Of a DNA stretch of 64,000 nt, positions 4,837 to 63,222 are shown one piece after another. The stretch spans positions 1-64,000 of IMG/VR virus record IMGVR_UViG_3300013232_000047. One strand, written 5' to 3'. The position numbers and the translations under genes were made by a program. Within the stretch, counting starts at the first letter, position 1; each line of letters opens with the position of its first letter. Below the pieces are notes generated by a model. It saw only the letters and a list, made by a program, of their open reading frames with translations, ran no database searches and was not told the DNA's origin. Source of the DNA: a virus.

Positions 4837-4912
4837 GCTACCGTGCCTGATTTGGTATAGGGACTCGTCTCTAAAACGAAGGATGTCGGTTCGATTCCGA
4901 CCGGTAGCACCA
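4837..4912 (+). tRNA. amber suppressor tRNA, anticodon CUA
   Basis: 76-nt cloverleaf: GCTACCG/CGGTAGC-ACCA, anticodon loop CT-CTA-AA, T-loop TTCGATT. Confidence 0.85.
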
Positions 4913-50257: not shown

Positions 50258-50382
50258 TGACGGGTCGAACTGAATACGGGTTATCATATGTAAAATGAAC
50301 AACGTGAGTTCAATTCTCACCCATGGCTCCAAATGCCATGGCCTTGGAGGTAAACACTCCGTGTCTAAAACCTTACCCGTCA
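50258..50382 (+). ncRNA. Y RNA (YrlA-like, T arm + closed acceptor stem)
   Basis: TGACGGGTCGAA...GGTTATC...GTGAG-TTCAATT-CTCAC-CCATGGC/GCCATGG...CCTTACCCGTCA. Confidence 0.75.
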
Positions 50383-50387
50383 TTATC

Positions 50388-50463
50388 GGTCAGTTAGCTC
50401 ATTTGGTAGAGCAGCGTCTCGATAAGGCGCAGGCGGCTGGATCGTAGCCAGCACTGACCACCA
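50388..50463 (+). tRNA. tRNA-Ile(GAT)
   Basis: cloverleaf, loop TC-GAT-AA. Confidence 0.88.
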
Positions 50464-50469
50464 ATTTAC

Positions 50470-50545
50470 GTCGGAGTAGCTCAGATGGAAGAGCAGAAGA
50501 CTGAAAATCTTCGTGTCACCAGCTCGAAACTGGTCTCCGGCACCA
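50470..50545 (+). tRNA. tRNA-Phe(GAA)
   Basis: cloverleaf, loop CT-GAA-AA. Confidence 0.9.
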
Positions 50546-50548
50546 TTT

Positions 50549-50612
50549 CTGCGAGTCGAACAGCATCGGTTATCTTTGGATGAAAATCCGATGCGAATTA
50601 ACTTACTTGCAG
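50549..50612 (+). ncRNA. minimal Y RNA
   Basis: CTGCGAGTCGAA-CA-GCATCGG-TTATC...CCGATGC...CTTACTTGCAG. Confidence 0.7.
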
Positions 50613-50616
50613 GATT

Positions 50617-50695
50617 GTCCGTGAGCGCAAAGTCGTCGAGCGACCTGCCCTTCAAGCAGGAAATCTAAGGGGTGCGAGTCCCCTCACGGATACCA
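50617..50695 (+). tRNA. tRNA-Glu(TTC), atypical
   Basis: loop CC-TTC-AA, acceptor GTCCGTG/CACGGAT. Confidence 0.8.
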
Positions 50696-50702
50696 ATTTA
50701 AC

Positions 50703-50777
50703 GGCCCGTTCGGCTATCAGCTAGGCCATCGGATTCTCAATCCGGGAAAGCGAGGGCGGCACTCGCACGGGCTACCA
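50703..50777 (+). tRNA. tRNA-Glu(CTC)
   Basis: loop TT-CTC-AA. Confidence 0.85.
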
Positions 50778-50792
50778 TCTTGTAATTAGGAT

Positions 50793-59644: not shown

Positions 59645-60088
59645 GGGGCCGTAATGGTTTCGATTTACGAAAACTTACGGTTATGACATGTCGAGGATGG
59701 CTATCGGCCTCGTTAAGTAGTAGCCACAAGTCAAATGCTGACAACAGTGATGACAATATCCTGAACATCGACAGTTTGCTGGCTCAAGCAGAGTCCATCG
59801 TGAATAACGCGGACGAAGTGTTGGCCCAGTTTCCTGTCGAACAGGAACTTGCTGCAGCCTGAAGTGCTGTAGGCGGTGCAGTGGAGACTCCTGCTATCCA
59901 TTGTATCGCTAAACTAGCAGGGAAGTGTTCTACCGAGCACAGTCGGTGGGCTTGTCGATAAAGCTTAATCGAATCCTGCAGTTACTTTTTAGCTATTTAA
60001 AGCCTGCAGGTATAAAAATAGAGAAGCATGTGTAAGTAACCGGCGAGAGGTCGTAAAGAAAGGGGTTCGACTCCCCTCGGCTCCACCA
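59645..60088 (+). ncRNA. ssrA: tmRNA
   Basis: GGGGCCG..GGTTTCGA 5' end, G3-U70, tag ORF 59737-59862 ending ELAAA*, 3' GGTTCGACTCC..CGGCTCCACCA. Confidence 0.93.
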
Positions 60089-60095
60089 TTTTTAA

Positions 60096-60222
60096 GGCTT
60101 GTGGGTCTAGAAGAGTAGGATTGCTATTAAGGGTGCTGCAACATCATGAGGCGTCCTCGGATAAGACGGCTGTAGGGTTACAGCTACAGATAAGTGAGGT
60201 TCGAATCCTCAACAAGCCATCA
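60096..60222 (+). ncRNA. expanded tRNA-like RNA
   Basis: acceptor GGCTTGT/ACAAGCC, T arm TGAGG-TTCGAAT-CCTCA, multi-hairpin interior. Confidence 0.6.
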
Positions 60223-60435
60223 ATTTCCCGCCCGTTGCATCATAGTACAGAGCAGTACGACGGCCTAAAAACCGTATGAATAGGAGCGTAGCGAACTCTA
60301 GGGTGCCGGTATCTCGAAGTCACGAGGTCGCGGCGGGAAAGCTCTTTGAAATTTTGTGGTTGCGTTGTTGAACATAGGCTTATTAACTCACTATGTTCAG
60401 CACTATACACGCAGCCACAAAGCTCTTTGAAAATT

Positions 60436-60578
60436 TAGCGGGTCGAAATCGTTGGTTATCACCAAACTGTTTGTCGAAGGTTCGAATCCTTCTCCCGGCT
60501 CCATATGCCGGGGTAGCTCAGTTGGCAGAGCAATAGTCTTCCCGAAAGGGAATTTCCGACGGTAAACCTTATCCGCTA
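60436..60578 (+). ncRNA. Y RNA, YrlA-type with permuted tRNA-like domain
   Basis: TAGCGGGTCGAA/CCTTATCCGCTA Ro helix; T arm, closed acceptor stem CCCGGC/GCCGGG, then D arm. Confidence 0.88.
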
Positions 60579-60663
60579 TACTTTATGCAGTCAGCCTGTT
60601 CTTTGGCTACATGTTTCTTGCTTCAGTGTAGCCTAACTTTTCAGACAGGCTGACTGCGCTATT

Positions 60664-60726
60664 TTGTCGGGTCGAACGTAAAGGGTTATCTCTAAAAATC
60701 GCCCTTTGCCACCACTTACCTGACAA
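60664..60726 (+). ncRNA. minimal Y RNA
   Basis: TTGTCGGGTCGAA-C-GTAAAGGG-TTATC...CCCTTTGC..CACTTACCTGACAA. Confidence 0.78.
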
Positions 60727-60732
60727 GAGCTT

Positions 60733-60890
60733 AAAAGTGTCGAGAGACCGCGTGTCGCTGGTTCAATTCCAGCCGTGTTCGCAGTAGCTCAGCGGTAGAG
60801 CAGCGCCGGAAGCGTGTGTCGCAGGTTCAAATCCTGCCTGTAAATGAACATGTAGCTCAGTGGTAGAGCAGCGAGTTCTCTCGACATTTT
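60733..60890 (+). ncRNA. double tRNA-elbow RNA
   Basis: order T arm, D arm, hairpin, T arm, D arm inside a 14-bp closing stem. Confidence 0.8.
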
Positions 60891-60941
60891 TTGTCGTTTT
60901 TTCTAGTTGACGGAAAACACGTGATTCGATAGCTTAGTCCT

Positions 60942-61304
60942 ATGAAAAGAATCTACCTAAGCAAAGCAGGTGAAGTAAGGATGCCGACTATCGACGAGCG
61001 TAGTCACTACGGAATGGCTAAAACTATTCTCGGTCCTTCTTGGGTAGGTGACACAGAAGATGCCTATACTGCTATGTGGCTGCTTGGCTGGGTGCGTGTA
61101 GCAGAATATGATGACACAGTTTACGCTGAAAAGTACATAAATGGAGAACCTGTAAAGTGGGTTGATCTTCCAAGAGCACAACGTGAATGGCTCGAAGACA
61201 GAAAGTTAGAAGGTAAGCAGGTCATGTGGAACGACACAGTGTTCGAGTCAACGCGTGAAGGAAAACAATTTGCAGGTGATATTGTTAAGGCTCTTTTGCA
61301 GTAA
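60942..61304 (+). CDS. hypothetical protein
   Basis: 120-aa ORF after TTGACG promoter; ends FAGDIVKALLQ. Confidence 0.7.
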   Translation: MKRIYLSKAGEVRMPTIDERSHYGMAKTILGPSWVGDTEDAYTAMWLLGWVRVAEYDDTVYAEKYINGEPVKWVDLPRAQREWLEDRKLEGKQVMWNDTVFESTREGKQFAGDIVKALLQ

Positions 61305-61320
61305 GTTACGTTTTTTCTAT

Positions 61321-61410
61321 GCCAATGTGAGCTAACCTAAAGGCTACCGCGTCCCGGAGAAAGTCTGGACAAGCGCGGCAGTGAGGGCGAAACCCCCTCC
61401 ATTGGCTCCA
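61321..61410 (+). ncRNA. tRNA-like RNA with extended anticodon arm
   Basis: acceptor GCCAATG/CATTGGC-TCCA; CCGCG/CGCGG stem enclosing 22-nt hairpin. Confidence 0.7.
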
Positions 61411-61515
61411 ATTTCCGACGGGTCACCAACTTACCTGTCGGGTCAGTAAACCGCAAACGGCCCTCGCAGGGGCTTACGCGAGTTGGAGCGACTGCACAGA
61501 AGGAGGCGCAAAATT

Positions 61516-63222
61516 ATGGGCGCTATCAAGGTTAGTTCGTTAAATACTTCCCGCCAGCAGGCGCGGAACAAGAACCTCTCAGTTCAACAGCCTATTCCAG
61601 ACAAGGGGCAAGTGCTTAACAGCACGGGTGGCTACGTCTGGCAAGCCAATGACTGGGATCTGCTCACTCGGTTTCTTATTCTCGGTGTCGAGGGCGGCAC
61701 CTACTACGTGAATGAGCCGGAACTGTTGAAGAGTAACACAGAAGCCGTAAAGCGTTGCATTCATACGCACGGTGTTCGCACTGTAAAGGAAATCGTAGAC
61801 GTGTCTGTAAATGGACGTGCCTATCGTAACGATCCGGCTATCTACGCATTGGCACTGGCTACCTATCTTGGAAATCAAAAGACCACAGAGGCTGCATACG
61901 CAGCTGTTCCTAACGTGTGTCGCACCGGCACTCACCTGTATCACTTCGCCATGTACTGCGACGCCCTCCGTGGCTGGGGTCGTGGTTTGAAGAAGGCAGT
62001 GGGCCGTTGGTTTACGTGTCAGGACGCTAATCGTCTGGCCTACCAGATGGTAAAGTATCAGCAGCGGGATGGTTGGTCTGCGGCAGACTTGCTGCGAAAG
62101 TCACATCCTGTTGCCGAGGACGCTGCTCAAGATGCGGTGTTTCGTTGGGTCGTTGCTGGAATGGATTGCCTTGGTGCCCGTCAGATCAAGCGCAAGTGCG
62201 GTTCTACGGAACTGATACATGACTACGCAGACGTGACGGCACATCTGCCAAAGTTTATCGAGGTGTTTGAGAAGGCCAAGACTGCCAGTGAGAAGGAACT
62301 GGTCAAGCTCATCCTTGACCATGGTCTTCCTCGTGAGGGCGTGCCAACGGAGAAGTTGAACAGCGTCGCTGTTTGGGACGCACTGCTCCAGAAGATGCCG
62401 CTCACGGCCATGATTCGTAACCTCGGAAAGATGACCAGTATCGGGCTGTTGAAGCCGATGTCCGAAGGTTCTAAGCTGGTAAGTGAGCGCCTTCGAGACG
62501 CTGATTACCTGAAGAAGTCTCGTGTTCATCCGATGGCGGTGCTTGTTGCGTCCAAGGTGTATGCAAACAACAAGGGCTTGAAGGGCAAGCTGACGTGGAA
62601 TCATGTTCCGCAACTCCTGACTGCGCTTGATGAGGCGTTCTACGCGACCTTTGGCAACGTTGTGCCTTCGGGCAAGGATATGCTAATCGCGCTGGATGTA
62701 TCTGGTTCCATGTCCAGTGCAATTGCGGGTAGCGTGATATCTTCTGCGGAAGCTGTTGCAGCTATGTCTTTGGTTTGGGCATCTACGGAGCCGTCGGTTC
62801 ACGTGTTTGGATTTGCTAACACGTTTCGTGATCTGGGTATCCGCAAGGGTATGTCACTCGCTGAGGCAACGCGCCGGGCGCAAGACTCGAACTTCGGTTC
62901 GACAGATGTTTCGCTGGCTTACCAGTTTGCGCTTGATAACCGCATCAAGGTTGGTGGATTCATCGTAATGACGGATAACGAAGTCAATAGTGGTCGGCAC
63001 CCTGCGCTGGCTTTGCGTGAATACCGTGAGCGCTTTGTCAGCGATGCGCGTAGCGTCGTGGTTGCTACAGCTGCAACCAGATTCACGATTAACGATCCTA
63101 CAGATAAGTGGGGTTTGGATGTATCCGGGTTCGACACCTCGGTGCCGAACGTAGTCACCGACTTTATCCGTGGTGAGCACGTAAAGGCTGAAATGGATGA
63201 AGAAGTTTCGGTTGAGGATTAA
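61516..63222 (+). CDS. Ro60 (TROVE + vWA) RNA-binding protein
   Basis: NSTGGY, RFLILG.EGGTYY, GWGR, KYQQRDGW, MPLTAMIRNLGKMT, DVSGSM MIDAS, TDNE, GFD; AGGAGG SD before ATG 61516. Confidence 0.95.
   Translation: MGAIKVSSLNTSRQQARNKNLSVQQPIPDKGQVLNSTGGYVWQANDWDLLTRFLILGVEGGTYYVNEPELLKSNTEAVKRCIHTHGVRTVKEIVDVSVNGRAYRNDPAIYALALATYLGNQKTTEAAYAAVPNVCRTGTHLYHFAMYCDALRGWGRGLKKAVGRWFTCQDANRLAYQMVKYQQRDGWSAADLLRKSHPVAEDAAQDAVFRWVVAGMDCLGARQIKRKCGSTELIHDYADVTAHLPKFIEVFEKAKTASEKELVKLILDHGLPREGVPTEKLNSVAVWDALLQKMPLTAMIRNLGKMTSIGLLKPMSEGSKLVSERLRDADYLKKSRVHPMAVLVASKVYANNKGLKGKLTWNHVPQLLTALDEAFYATFGNVVPSGKDMLIALDVSGSMSSAIAGSVISSAEAVAAMSLVWASTEPSVHVFGFANTFRDLGIRKGMSLAEATRRAQDSNFGSTDVSLAYQFALDNRIKVGGFIVMTDNEVNSGRHPALALREYRERFVSDARSVVVATAATRFTINDPTDKWGLDVSGFDTSVPNVVTDFIRGEHVKAEMDEEVSVED

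What the first reader, a model, noticed from the sequence alone, without database searches (positions are those of the whole stretch)
60436..63222. Phage-encoded Ro60 with a family of at least four Y RNAs sharing a GG-UUAUC motif
Seen: a Ro60 gene (61516-63222) and four RNAs with one architecture: RGUCGAA / CUUAYY helix, a second stem ending in GG, then unpaired UUAUC. They are 60436-60578 (with T arm, closed acceptor stem and D arm), 60664-60726 (minimal), and, 10 kb away among tRNAs, 50258-50382 (T arm and acceptor only) and 50549-50612 (minimal). Stem sequences differ while pairing is kept. Established: bacterial Ro60 binds Y RNAs, and YrlA-type RNAs mimic tRNA. From memory, UUAUC at the loop start is the conserved motif of animal Y RNAs and nematode stem-bulge RNAs. 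Inference: the phage carries a diversified set of Ro adaptors or decoys linked to tRNA damage, repair or decay.
Basis: partly seen in the sequence, partly recalled or inferred. Interest (0 to 1): 0.85.

Follow-up and report, generated by a model that had tools for sequence, protein, structure and literature searches.

The report
Phage Ro60 with four Y RNAs
An uncultured giant phage carries a Ro60 RNA-binding protein together with four small partner RNAs (Y RNAs), a set that matches what related bacteria carry, so it is a well-supported but ordinary member of a known system.

Summary
Window 61516-63222 encodes a full-length Ro60: TROVE plus Ro60-vWA domains, E 1e-108 to Xenopus Ro60. Four + strand RNAs (60436-60578, 60664-60726, 50258-50382, 50549-50612) share an 8-bp lower helix with bulged C and GUCGAA, a covarying upper stem ending in GG, and unpaired UUAUC. 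The motif occurs 4 times against 0.03 expected.

A covariance model built from the short form finds the same RNA beside Ro60 in 5 other phage contigs. It also finds it in 67 of 80 prokaryotic Ro60 loci, with 93 of 94 hits on the Ro60 strand. In 85 sequences 96% of cells are paired and 15 of 18 pairs covary.

The architecture is the published YrlA design (GNCGAA, then YUAY). Phage Ro60 with Y RNAs is already known from mycobacteriophages and Thermus phage phiLo. The closest bacterial loci (Verrucomicrobiota) carry 2-3 such RNAs, up to 5, so four is not unusual.

The proposed link to tRNA repair has no support: no RtcB, Rnl2-type ligase or CCA enzyme was found in the 120 kb, which is about half the genome.

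Side results:
- Relatives of the short form pass Rfam's threshold for nematode stem-bulge RNAs.
- The acceptor-like loops read N-CCA plus 3 nt.
- Ro60 loci often lie inside tRNA arrays.

Expression and binding are untested. The scan noted this same stretch twice.

The parts
61516..63222 (+). Ro60 (Rsr) gene, 568 aa, preceded by a GGAGG ribosome-binding site
   Evidence: Pfam TROVE 3e-40 and vWA_Ro60 1.3e-44. PDB 1yvp Xenopus Ro60 1.3e-108, 9nen human RO60 2.2e-108, 2nvo Deinococcus Rsr 2.1e-104, each over nearly the full length. The DVSGS (MIDAS DxSxS) residues are invariant in the 6-sequence phage alignment.
60436..60578 (+). Y1: long YrlA-type Y RNA. Order of elements: lower helix with GUCGAA, upper stem, UUAUC, canonical T arm, 7-bp acceptor-like stem closed by an N-CCA+3 loop, D arm, GAAA-loop hairpin.
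   Evidence: Rfam YrlA partial match 60468-60535, 32.8 bits. The module aligns to a real tRNA-Tyr/tRNA-Asn junction in phage Viktualia. Near-identical acceptor-like stems occur in Verrucomicrobiota loci.
60664..60726 (+). Y2: minimal Y RNA, with lower helix, upper stem, UUAUC and a short loop
   Evidence: CM R1 38.9 bits, R2 60.1 bits, E 6e-12. Rfam sbRNA RF01656 24.9 bits, below the gathering score of 38.
50258..50382 (+). Y3: long Y RNA with a canonical T arm and a 7-bp acceptor-like stem (N-CCA+3 loop) but no D arm. It ends 5 nt before tRNA-Ile.
   Evidence: (descriptor score 17). tRNA-Ile lies at 50388-50463.
50549..50612 (+). Y4: minimal Y RNA, starting 3 nt after the CCA end of tRNA-Phe
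   Evidence: A seed of CM R1, so it matches by construction (75.1 bits). R2 68.7 bits. RF01656 21.2 bits. tRNA-Phe lies at 50470-50545.
61415..61441 (+). Hairpin in the Ro60 leader: a 7-bp Ro-site-like helix whose loop keeps the conserved 3' ACCAACUU signature. Probably a truncated minimal Y RNA. Low confidence.
   Evidence: Seen. CM R2 gives only 9.6 bits, E 1.8. In 24 close bacterial loci a minimal Y RNA usually occupies this position, 85-150 nt before Ro60.
60738..60890 (+). RNA with two YrlA-like tRNA-elbow modules inside a closing stem. It has no GUCGAA/CUUAYY helix and no UUAUC. It is associated with the system but not shown to be a Y RNA.
   Evidence: Rfam YrlA partial matches 60749-60805 (29.5 bits) and 60813-60874 (32.2 bits); tRNA match 60778-60845 (44.2 bits). 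Fold. A terminator-like site lies at 60882-60896.

Best explanation
This is a phage copy of the bacterial rsr (Ro60) and Y RNA system. The phage makes a ring-shaped Ro60 protein and four Y RNAs.

Shown by sequence and comparison: each RNA has the Ro60-site helix (8 bp, bulged C, GUCGAA opposite CUUAYY), a covarying upper stem, and UUAUC at the position of YrlA's conserved YUAY.

Inferred:
- Ro60 binds the lower helix, as shown for Xenopus, Deinococcus and Thermus phage phiLo.
- The variable part of each RNA decides what the particle does. In Y1 and Y3 that part is a host-like tRNA elbow. In Y2 and Y4 it is only a short loop.
- The elbow modules would recruit a host factor that binds tRNA elbows, or PNPase.
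- The minimal forms would gate or titrate Ro60.
- The RNAs are probably cut out of the tRNA/tmRNA island transcripts by tRNA-processing enzymes. Y3 and Y4 flank tRNA-Ile and tRNA-Phe with spacers of 5 and 3 nt.

The net role is most likely to redirect or damp host structured-RNA decay during infection.

The confidence given applies to the identity claim (a Ro60 with four cognate Y RNAs). The effector and net role are much less certain.
For: Ro60 identity.

Motif and pairing in the four copies.

The family is tied to Ro60:
- CM R1/R2 hits lie on the Ro60 strand beside Ro60 in phage loci L010, L011, L012 (weak) and L013, and in L037 and L072. Ro60 in the last two was confirmed by tblastn over all 117 pattern loci.
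- 67 of 80 prokaryotic Ro60 loci have a hit, by my count of the table. 93 of 94 hits are on the Ro60 strand.

Covariation:
- 8 sequences: 95.8% of cells paired, 13 of 18 pairs changed on both sides, slid controls at most 46%.
- 85 sequences: 96.3% paired, 15 of 18 pairs changed, slid controls at most 48%.
- Column counts: bulged C 85 of 85; UUAYC nearly invariant (U 85, U 85, A 82, Y 85, C 84 of 85).

The published YrlA design has the same order of elements, GNCGAA then YUAY then a T/AS/D domain (Chen 2014 passages; Rfam consensus).

Phage precedent: 22 phages in Chen 2014. In phiLo, Ro60 binds two Yrls and forms a complex with host PNPase that lowers its activity (passages).

Co-transcription precedent: the Deinococcus Yrn2-tRNA-Asp-Yrn1 precursor.

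Elbows: Y1 and Y3 have canonical UUCRA T loops, while 21 of 25 ARAGORN-called phage tRNAs do not.
Against: - No expression or binding data exist. No RNA run holds the stretch, so discrete RNA species and ends are unproven.
- No copy reaches an Rfam gathering score. YrlA gives 32.8 against 69; RF01656 gives 24.9 and 21.2 against 38; Y_RNA RF00019 gives nothing at E<=10.
- The CM alignments are fitted to the model's own structure and motif. Pair counts and motif conservation therefore lean towards it.
- Y3 and Y4 lie 11 kb from Ro60, outside the 4-kb rule used by Chen 2014.
- The CM for the short form does not detect the long forms Y1 and Y3. Their membership rests on my descriptor, the shared motif and the partial YrlA match.
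- Y3's upper stem competes with an alternative hairpin in the MFE fold.
- The effector (PNPase or an elbow-binding protein) is inferred from other species only.
Confidence: 0.8

Rival explanations
1. Counter-defence particle. Ro60 plus canonical-elbow tRNA mimics act as decoys or inhibitors against a host anti-phage system, while the phage's own tRNAs escape recognition through altered elbows.
For: The Ro60-like gp130 of phage Bas63, located just upstream of its tRNA genes, was reported to counter the Ppl defence system (PhageMaP preprint, passage read). The Y1, Y3 and two-elbow RNA modules keep UUCRA T loops, whereas 21 of 25 phage tRNAs lack them.
Against: The same Y RNA design, including canonical elbows, occurs in chromosomal bacterial Ro60 loci. 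The elbows are therefore inherited rather than a phage invention. No defence target is known for this uncultured host. This reading is compatible with the main explanation rather than exclusive of it.
Confidence: 0.15
2. Quality control for the tRNA island. Ro60 and the Y RNAs monitor, or help process, the many unusual tRNAs transcribed from the array, sending misfolded ones to decay.
For: Ro60 sits inside dense same-strand tRNA arrays here: 25 tRNAs plus a tmRNA. Among the 80 closest prokaryotic Ro60 loci, 42 have >=3 tRNAs and 22 have >=10, by my count. A TROVE gene was reported in 20 of 29 archaeal tRNA clusters (Morgado and Vicente 2019, passage). Ro60's known role is binding misfolded noncoding RNA (passages).
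Against: This is association only. 38 of the 80 loci have fewer than 3 tRNAs nearby. The 80 are the best of 517 relatives of this one phage protein, so they are not an unbiased sample.
Confidence: 0.2
3. RNA-repair platform. The Y RNAs and Ro60 work with RtcB-type repair of damaged tRNAs.
For: In Salmonella, rsr and the yrl RNAs share an operon with rtcBA (abstract and listing of PMC7790460). Iyer et al. 2021 place phage TROVE proteins under RNA repair (passage).
Against: RtcB, PolyA_pol and Rnl2-type ligase are absent from the 120 kb. The Rnl1 search was uninformative. The record is only about 53% complete, so absence is not proven.
Confidence: 0.08
4. They are not partner RNAs but decayed tRNA genes, transcript-processing signals or terminators that only look alike.
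For: They lie among tRNAs. Two contain tRNA pieces with a fossil-like N-CCA junction. No expression data exist.
Against: The minimal forms contain no tRNA part. The helix, the bulged C and UUAYC are conserved with compensatory changes across phyla, always beside Ro60 and on its strand.
Confidence: 0.03

Closest known systems
YrlA-type bacterial Y RNAs (Chen et al. 2014; Rfam RF02553), including those of mycobacteriophages
   Same: GNCGAA Ro site near the 5' end, a second stem, YUAY (here UUAU), then a permuted tRNA-like domain (T arm, closed acceptor-like stem, D arm). Encoded on the Ro60 strand. More than one Y RNA per genome, one of them a simple hairpin.
   Different: Only Y1 has the full domain and Y3 lacks the D arm. 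All copies score far below Rfam's threshold, but so does the mycobacteriophage ParkTD locus (36.1 bits). Two copies lie 11 kb from Ro60, inside the tRNA array. The acceptor-like loops encode N-CCA.
Thermus phage phiLo Ro60 with Yrl1/Yrl2 (NAR 2025, PMC12135203)
   Same: A phage Ro60 with several small CGAA-motif stem-bulge-stem RNAs encoded upstream. That study shows binding and a complex with host PNPase, which is the best functional model for this locus.
   Different: Four RNAs rather than two, two of them with tRNA-like modules. The phage lineage and likely host are different; the closest Ro60 relatives are Verrucomicrobiota at 50-53% identity. Nothing has been tested here.
Nematode stem-bulge RNAs and vertebrate Y RNAs (Rfam RF01656, RF00019)
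   Same: Lower helix with bulged C, an upper stem ending in G, UUAUC at the start of the loop, and a 3' strand with the same conserved block as the Rfam sbRNA consensus. Seven relatives in 6 of 14 scanned loci pass RF01656's gathering score.
   Different: The window's own copies are below threshold (24.9 and 21.2 against 38). There is no match to RF00019. The host and transcription machinery are prokaryotic. The published role of UUAUC is in eukaryotic DNA replication, not Ro60 binding.
Deinococcus radiodurans Yrn1/Yrn2
   Same: Several Y RNAs co-transcribed with a tRNA and bound by Rsr. Y RNA tethers Rsr to PNPase (passages).
   Different: The tRNA-like parts are arranged differently, and no similarity search links them to the RNAs here.

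Membership tests
Ro60 / TROVE proteins | TROVE (HEAT-repeat ring) domain followed by a vWA domain with a MIDAS motif | tested here: met
   Pfam TROVE 3e-40 and vWA_Ro60 1.3e-44. DVSGS is present and invariant in 6 phage Ro60s.
Ro60 / TROVE proteins | Full-length similarity to structurally solved Ro60 | tested here: met
   1yvp 1.3e-108 (query 24-550), 9nen 2.2e-108, 2nvo 2.1e-104.
YrlA-type Y RNA (Chen 2014 / RF02553) | GNCGAA(N0-1)G motif near the 5' end | tested here: met
   GUCGAA is present in 4 of 4 copies. The trailing G within 0-1 nt is present in only 1 of 4 (Y2), read.
YrlA-type Y RNA (Chen 2014 / RF02553) | Conserved YUAY after the second stem | tested here: met
   UUAU(C) in 4 of 4 copies. 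It occupies the same place as CUAc in the Rfam consensus.
YrlA-type Y RNA (Chen 2014 / RF02553) | tRNA-like domain: T arm, closed acceptor-like stem, D arm | tested here: inconclusive
   Met in Y1 (model positions 23-85, 32.8 bits). Y3 has the T arm and acceptor-like stem only. Y2 and Y4 have none.
YrlA-type Y RNA (Chen 2014 / RF02553) | Encoded within about 4 kb of Ro60 on the same strand | tested here: inconclusive
   Y1 and Y2 lie 0.8-1.1 kb upstream on the same strand. Y3 and Y4 lie about 11 kb upstream on the same strand.
YrlA-type Y RNA (Chen 2014 / RF02553) | Rfam gathering score (69 bits) | tested here: not met
   The best score is 32.8 bits. The model is narrow: mycobacteriophage ParkTD scores 36.1 and L012 scores 41.0.
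YrlA-type Y RNA (Chen 2014 / RF02553) | Bound by the cognate Ro60 | not testable with these tools
   Needs RIP or EMSA.
   Y2 scores 38.9 bits with R1, which did not contain it. Y4 was a seed. Both score >=60 bits with R2. Y1 and Y3 are not detected because the insert is too long.
Metazoan Y RNA / nematode sbRNA (RF00019, RF01656) | Rfam gathering scores (38 bits each) | tested here: not met
   RF01656 gives 24.9 and 21.2 bits. RF00019 gives no match at E<=10. Relatives do pass RF01656: 7 RNAs in 6 of 14 loci.
Metazoan Y RNA / nematode sbRNA (RF00019, RF01656) | UUAUC at the 5' side of the loop and a bulged-C lower helix | tested here: met
   The motif is named in Kowalski and Krude 2015.

The most novel reading that the evidence does not exclude
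The short Ro60-linked hairpins of phages and prokaryotes are the same RNA family as nematode stem-bulge RNAs and animal Y RNAs. They share the bulged-C helix, G-UUAUC and the same conserved 3' block. UUAUC would then be an ancient element of the Ro60 particle rather than a eukaryotic replication signal.

In this phage the particle would additionally carry host-type tRNA elbows, with an encoded N-CCA in the acceptor-like loop. These would act as bait for a host tRNA-binding factor that the phage's own rewired tRNAs avoid.
Probability: 0.25. Interest if true: 0.65.

Novelty: new member of a known kind. Interest (0 to 1): 0.4.

Why it matters
For the window itself, the result is a clean annotation of one protein gene and four unannotated RNA genes in an uncultured giant phage. 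It also points to a Verrucomicrobiota-like origin of the module.

Three wider points could interest Ro60 specialists:
1. A short Y RNA class with near-invariant UUAYC lies directly upstream of Ro60 in most of the 80 prokaryotic loci examined. In the loci scanned, the only Rfam family that matched it was the nematode sbRNA family. This bears on the published statement that bacterial Y RNAs are 'not homologous' with the vertebrate Y RNA clades.
2. The N-CCA+3 loops, and the alignment to a real tRNA-tRNA junction, are concrete support for the proposed origin of YrlA from dimeric tRNA transcripts.
3. Ro60 and Y RNAs recur inside tRNA arrays. This suggests where to look for their substrate.

Tried and rejected
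- Rfam at gathering thresholds gave no YrlA, Y_RNA or sbRNA match in the window. In evalue mode there were only sub-threshold matches. RF00019 on the whole record gave nothing at E<=10.
- MAFFT alignments of six and of four short RNAs misaligned the 3' halves and were not used. A three-sequence alignment seeded model R1.
- Model R2 with filters off over 42-64 kb did not recover the long forms Y1 and Y3. It scored the Ro60-leader hairpin at only E 1.8.
R2 was run on 100 of the 117 and hit 3 loci; L116-L132 were not searched with R2. tblastn for Ro60 over all 117 found it in 2.
- My descriptor is noisy at low scores: about 24 hits per shuffled genome at any score, and 0-2 at score >=15.
- Promoter and terminator scans gave counts near the shuffled expectation. 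Only a terminator-like site at 60882-60896 looked useful.
- A repeated 17-mer flanking the hairpin upstream of Y1 occurs only twice; 12 of 100 shuffles reach 2 matches.
- Expression: no RNA holder was listed.
- RNA-repair genes: RtcB, PolyA_pol and RNA_ligase (PF09414) had no match. RNA_lig_T4_1 had no match, but its control rang nowhere. PNPase and RtcA were not searched.
- Literature:
  - UUAUC with 'Y RNA' gave 5 papers and UUAUC with Ro60 gave 9. By title and abstract start none concerns bacteria or phages; I read passages of only one of them (PMC4726728).
  - 'tRNA array' with Ro60 gave 0 papers.
  - 'tRNA array' with TROVE gave 1 paper, which reports the association in archaea.
  - The reviews PMC10870794 and PMC6047535 are not held.
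- No structure prediction, tree, protein-atlas or large protein-database search was run. None seemed needed for the verdict.


Full report
WHAT IS THERE. The window is the first 64 kb of a 120,022-base linear IMG/VR virus record that CheckV estimates at about 53% complete. From about 43 kb onward it is an island of + strand RNA genes. ARAGORN tRNAs (one of them far upstream at 4.8 kb). Rfam tRNAs and a tmRNA at 59645-60088.

The ORF 61516-63222 has a GGAGG ribosome-binding site and encodes 568 aa. It matches Pfam TROVE (3e-40) and vWA_Ro60 (1.3e-44). It matches solved Ro60 structures over nearly its full length: Xenopus 1yvp 1.3e-108, human 9nen 2.2e-108, Deinococcus Rsr 2nvo 2.1e-104. It is a Ro60.

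THE FOUR RNAs.
The expectation is 0.03, and 0 of 100 shuffles reach 4. There are no further matches in the rest of the record.
- Every copy pairs 8 of 8 in the lower helix and 7 of 7 in the last seven pairs of the upper stem. Between copies there are both-side changes at four lower and five upper positions.
- Between the two helices each copy has an unpaired C followed by GA, which can pair with UU on the 3' strand. After the upper stem each copy reads UUAUC.
- Y2 (60664-60726) and Y4 (50549-50612) contain nothing more than a short loop.
- Y1 (60436-60578) adds a canonical T arm, a 7-bp closed acceptor-like stem, a D arm and a GAAA-loop hairpin. Rfam's YrlA model matches its positions 23-85 at 32.8 bits.
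- Y3 (50258-50382) has the T arm and acceptor-like stem but no D arm. Its upper stem competes with a small hairpin in the MFE fold.
- Y3 ends 5 nt before tRNA-Ile and Y4 begins 3 nt after the CCA of tRNA-Phe. This fits release from a shared precursor by tRNA-processing enzymes. Chen et al. 2014 showed that arrangement for Deinococcus Yrn2-tRNA-Asp-Yrn1 (passage).

COMPARATIVE TEST: PHAGES. Four IMG/VR contigs encode Ro60 relatives at 41-45% identity.
- I built a covariance model (R1) from three short RNAs: Y4 and one each from L010 and L011.
- R1 found Y2 at 38.9 bits. It also found further copies in L010, L011 and L013, all on the Ro60 strand, and weaker ones in L012 and in mycobacteriophage ParkTD, flanking its partial YrlA match.
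- On the 8-sequence alignment 95.8% of cells pair and 13 of 18 pairs change on both sides. Slid controls reach at most 46%.
- The rebuilt model R2 found no further copy in the own record.
- R2 hit 3 of the 100 IMG/VR pattern loci it was run on. Two of those three encode Ro60 next to the hits (tblastn over all 117 loci).

COMPARATIVE TEST: PROKARYOTES. The 80 best of 517 Ro60 relatives in prokaryotic assemblies are led by Verrucomicrobiota at 50-53% identity.
- R2 gave 94 hits at E<=0.1, 93 of them on the Ro60 strand, in 67 of the 80 loci by my count. Most lie just upstream of Ro60.
- The 85-sequence alignment is 96.3% paired with 15 of 18 covarying pairs. Slid controls reach at most 48%.
- Its columns show the bulged C in 85 of 85 sequences and UUAYC nearly invariant.
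- These alignments are fitted to the model, so the figures lean towards it. The strand and position bias does not depend on that fitting.

HOW UNUSUAL IS FOUR? A structural descriptor of my own catches long forms too, though it is noisy below score 15.
- At score >=15 it finds exactly the four RNAs in the own record, against 0-2 in shuffles.
- In related phage loci it finds 2 to 6 per locus: 5 in L011 and 6 in L012.
- In the 24 closest bacterial loci it finds 3 RNAs in 11 loci, 2 in 7, 1 in 3, 0 in 1, 4 in 1 and 5 in 1.
- The typical layout there is one RNA of about 66-70 nt placed 85-150 nt before Ro60, plus one to three long forms.
- One Limisphaerales long form has the same module order as Y1 and nearly the same acceptor-like stem.

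The phage set is therefore the normal complement of this lineage's rsr locus, probably acquired with the gene. What differs is the placement: two copies sit 11 kb away among tRNAs. The slot just before Ro60 holds only a 27-nt hairpin (61415-61441). That hairpin keeps the lower helix and the conserved 3' block but lacks the upper stem and UUAUC. I read it as a truncated minimal Y RNA, on weak evidence (R2 E 1.8).

RELATION TO WHAT IS KNOWN.
- Chen et al. 2014 (passages read) describe YrlA-like RNAs beside Ro60 in 254 bacteria and 22 phages. Those RNAs have a GNCGAA(N0-1)G motif taken as the Ro site, a conserved YUAY beginning the next loop, a T/AS/D tRNA-like domain, and at least one additional simple hairpin Y RNA per species.
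- The Rfam YrlA consensus has these elements in the order seen here.
- The Rfam model is narrow: the mycobacteriophage locus scores 36.1 bits against a threshold of 69.
- Thermus phage phiLo Ro60 binds two upstream Yrls and forms a complex with host PNPase that lowers its activity (passages).
- Iyer et al. 2021 note TROVE proteins in some jumbo phages.
- A preprint reports that the Ro60-like gp130 of phage Bas63, next to its tRNA genes, counters the Ppl defence system.

The kind is therefore known, and this is a new member of it.

THE UUAUC QUESTION. Kowalski and Krude 2015 name UUAUC as conserved in sbRNAs and vertebrate Y RNAs and as needed for replication activity. [quoted passage not shown]
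- Y2 and Y4 align end to end to Rfam's nematode sbRNA family RF01656, below its threshold (24.9 and 21.2 against 38 bits).
- In a gathering-threshold scan of 14 related loci, seven short Y RNAs in six loci pass that threshold (38.6-47.5 bits). One of them is in phage locus L013.
- The vertebrate model RF00019 finds nothing.
- Two literature searches turned up no paper that, by title and abstract start, concerns bacterial or phage Y RNAs. Reviews and supplements I could not read may cover this.

Whether the resemblance reflects common descent or shared constraint from Ro60 cannot be settled here.

tRNA-LIKE MODULES.
- The acceptor-like loops of Y1 and Y3 read N-CCA followed by three bases.
- Y1's module aligns to a genuine tRNA-Tyr/tRNA-Asn junction of Pseudomonas phage Viktualia: T arm, acceptor 3' strand, N-CCA, spacer, acceptor 5' strand, D arm.
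- Loops of the same type occur in 23 of 114 T-arm...D-arm regex matches across 91 sources, mostly Verrucomicrobiota Ro60 loci. A few of the 114 are ordinary tRNA junctions.
- This fits the dimeric-tRNA origin model quoted in the YrlA structure preprint.
- With 7-bp stems, it also raises the possibility of RNase P cleavage, as shown for Mycobacterium smegmatis YrlA.
- The modules of Y1, Y3 and the two-elbow RNA, and also the tmRNA, have canonical UUCRA T loops. In contrast 21 of 25 ARAGORN-called phage tRNAs do not.

MECHANISM AND RIVALS.
- Shown: the gene's identity, and the RNAs' architecture, conservation and linkage to Ro60.
- Inferred from other species: Ro60 binds the lower helix; the variable module selects a partner (PNPase or a tRNA-elbow-binding protein); the short forms gate or titrate the ring.
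- Rivals that fit the data less directly: a counter-defence role, quality control of array tRNAs, and an RNA-repair platform.
- The repair idea has no support in the available half of the genome.
- The array idea gains some weight. Among the 80 prokaryotic Ro60 loci, 42 have at least 3 tRNAs and 22 have at least 10, almost all on the Ro60 strand. Some of these lie on contigs of 1-2.4 Mb.
- A TROVE gene in 20 of 29 archaeal tRNA clusters is already in print.

VERDICT. Expression and binding are untested, since no RNA run holds the stretch.

Noticed in passing
window 60738-60890: An RNA closed by an 11-bp stem holds two YrlA-like elbow modules; the inner part scores as a tRNA with a shortened anticodon loop (44.2 bits). 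It has no Ro-site helix and no UUAUC. It follows Y2 by about 11 nt and ends at a terminator-like site. The scan has a separate note on it.
   Followed up: partly
window 61415-61441: A hairpin 75 nt before the Ro60 start keeps the Y RNA lower helix and the conserved 3' block in its loop. In the closest bacterial loci a complete minimal Y RNA occupies this position. It may be a truncated Y RNA or an autoregulatory Ro60 site. L012 has a comparable small hairpin just before its Ro60.
   Followed up: partly
window 43268-63789: 21 of 25 ARAGORN-called tRNAs lack the canonical UUCRA T loop, and most read UGNGA instead. All 25 encode their CCA end. The tmRNA and the tRNA mimics near Ro60 keep the canonical loop.
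   Followed up: partly
window 60096-60219 and 60226-60337: Two more structured stretches lie between the tmRNA and Y1. The first is a 124-nt tRNA-like RNA with a 7-bp acceptor stem, a canonical T arm and a long insert. The second is a region closed by a long-range G+C stem. Strong hairpins at 60341-60434 and 60587-60655 flank Y1.
   Followed up: no
window 50619-50778: Two tRNA-like sequences ending in CCA lie directly after Y4. Neither ARAGORN nor Rfam called them.
   Followed up: no
window 4837-4912: A tRNA with anticodon CUA, which reads UAG, with a canonical T loop. It raises the question of stop-codon suppression or recoding in this phage.
   Followed up: no
L136-L215 (prokaryotic Ro60 loci): 42 of 80 loci have at least 3 tRNA genes within about 4 kb of Ro60 and 22 have at least 10, nearly all on the Ro60 strand. 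Some lie on contigs of 1-2.4 Mb. A Bathyarchaeota MAG (L191) has four model hits upstream of its Ro60.
   Followed up: partly
L137, L143, L144, L153, L198, L013: Short Ro60-adjacent RNAs in these loci pass the Rfam gathering score of the nematode sbRNA family RF01656 (38.6-47.5 bits). An automatic annotation would therefore label them as nematode RNAs.
   Followed up: partly
L217 2501-2575 (Streptomyces phage SparkleGoddess and 11 similar records): An unannotated YrlA-like module, 80% identical to Y1's module, lies between tRNA-Ile and tRNA-Ser, 2 kb upstream of the annotated Ro-like protein.
   Followed up: partly
L012 8864-8991: A Y RNA whose insert is a tRNA-like unit in normal order (D arm, short anticodon stem, T arm; tRNA model 33.7 bits), not the permuted order. 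The insert module therefore varies between family members. A CC-GAAA-GG hairpin recurs in several phage Y RNAs (Y1, L011, L012, L015).
   Followed up: no
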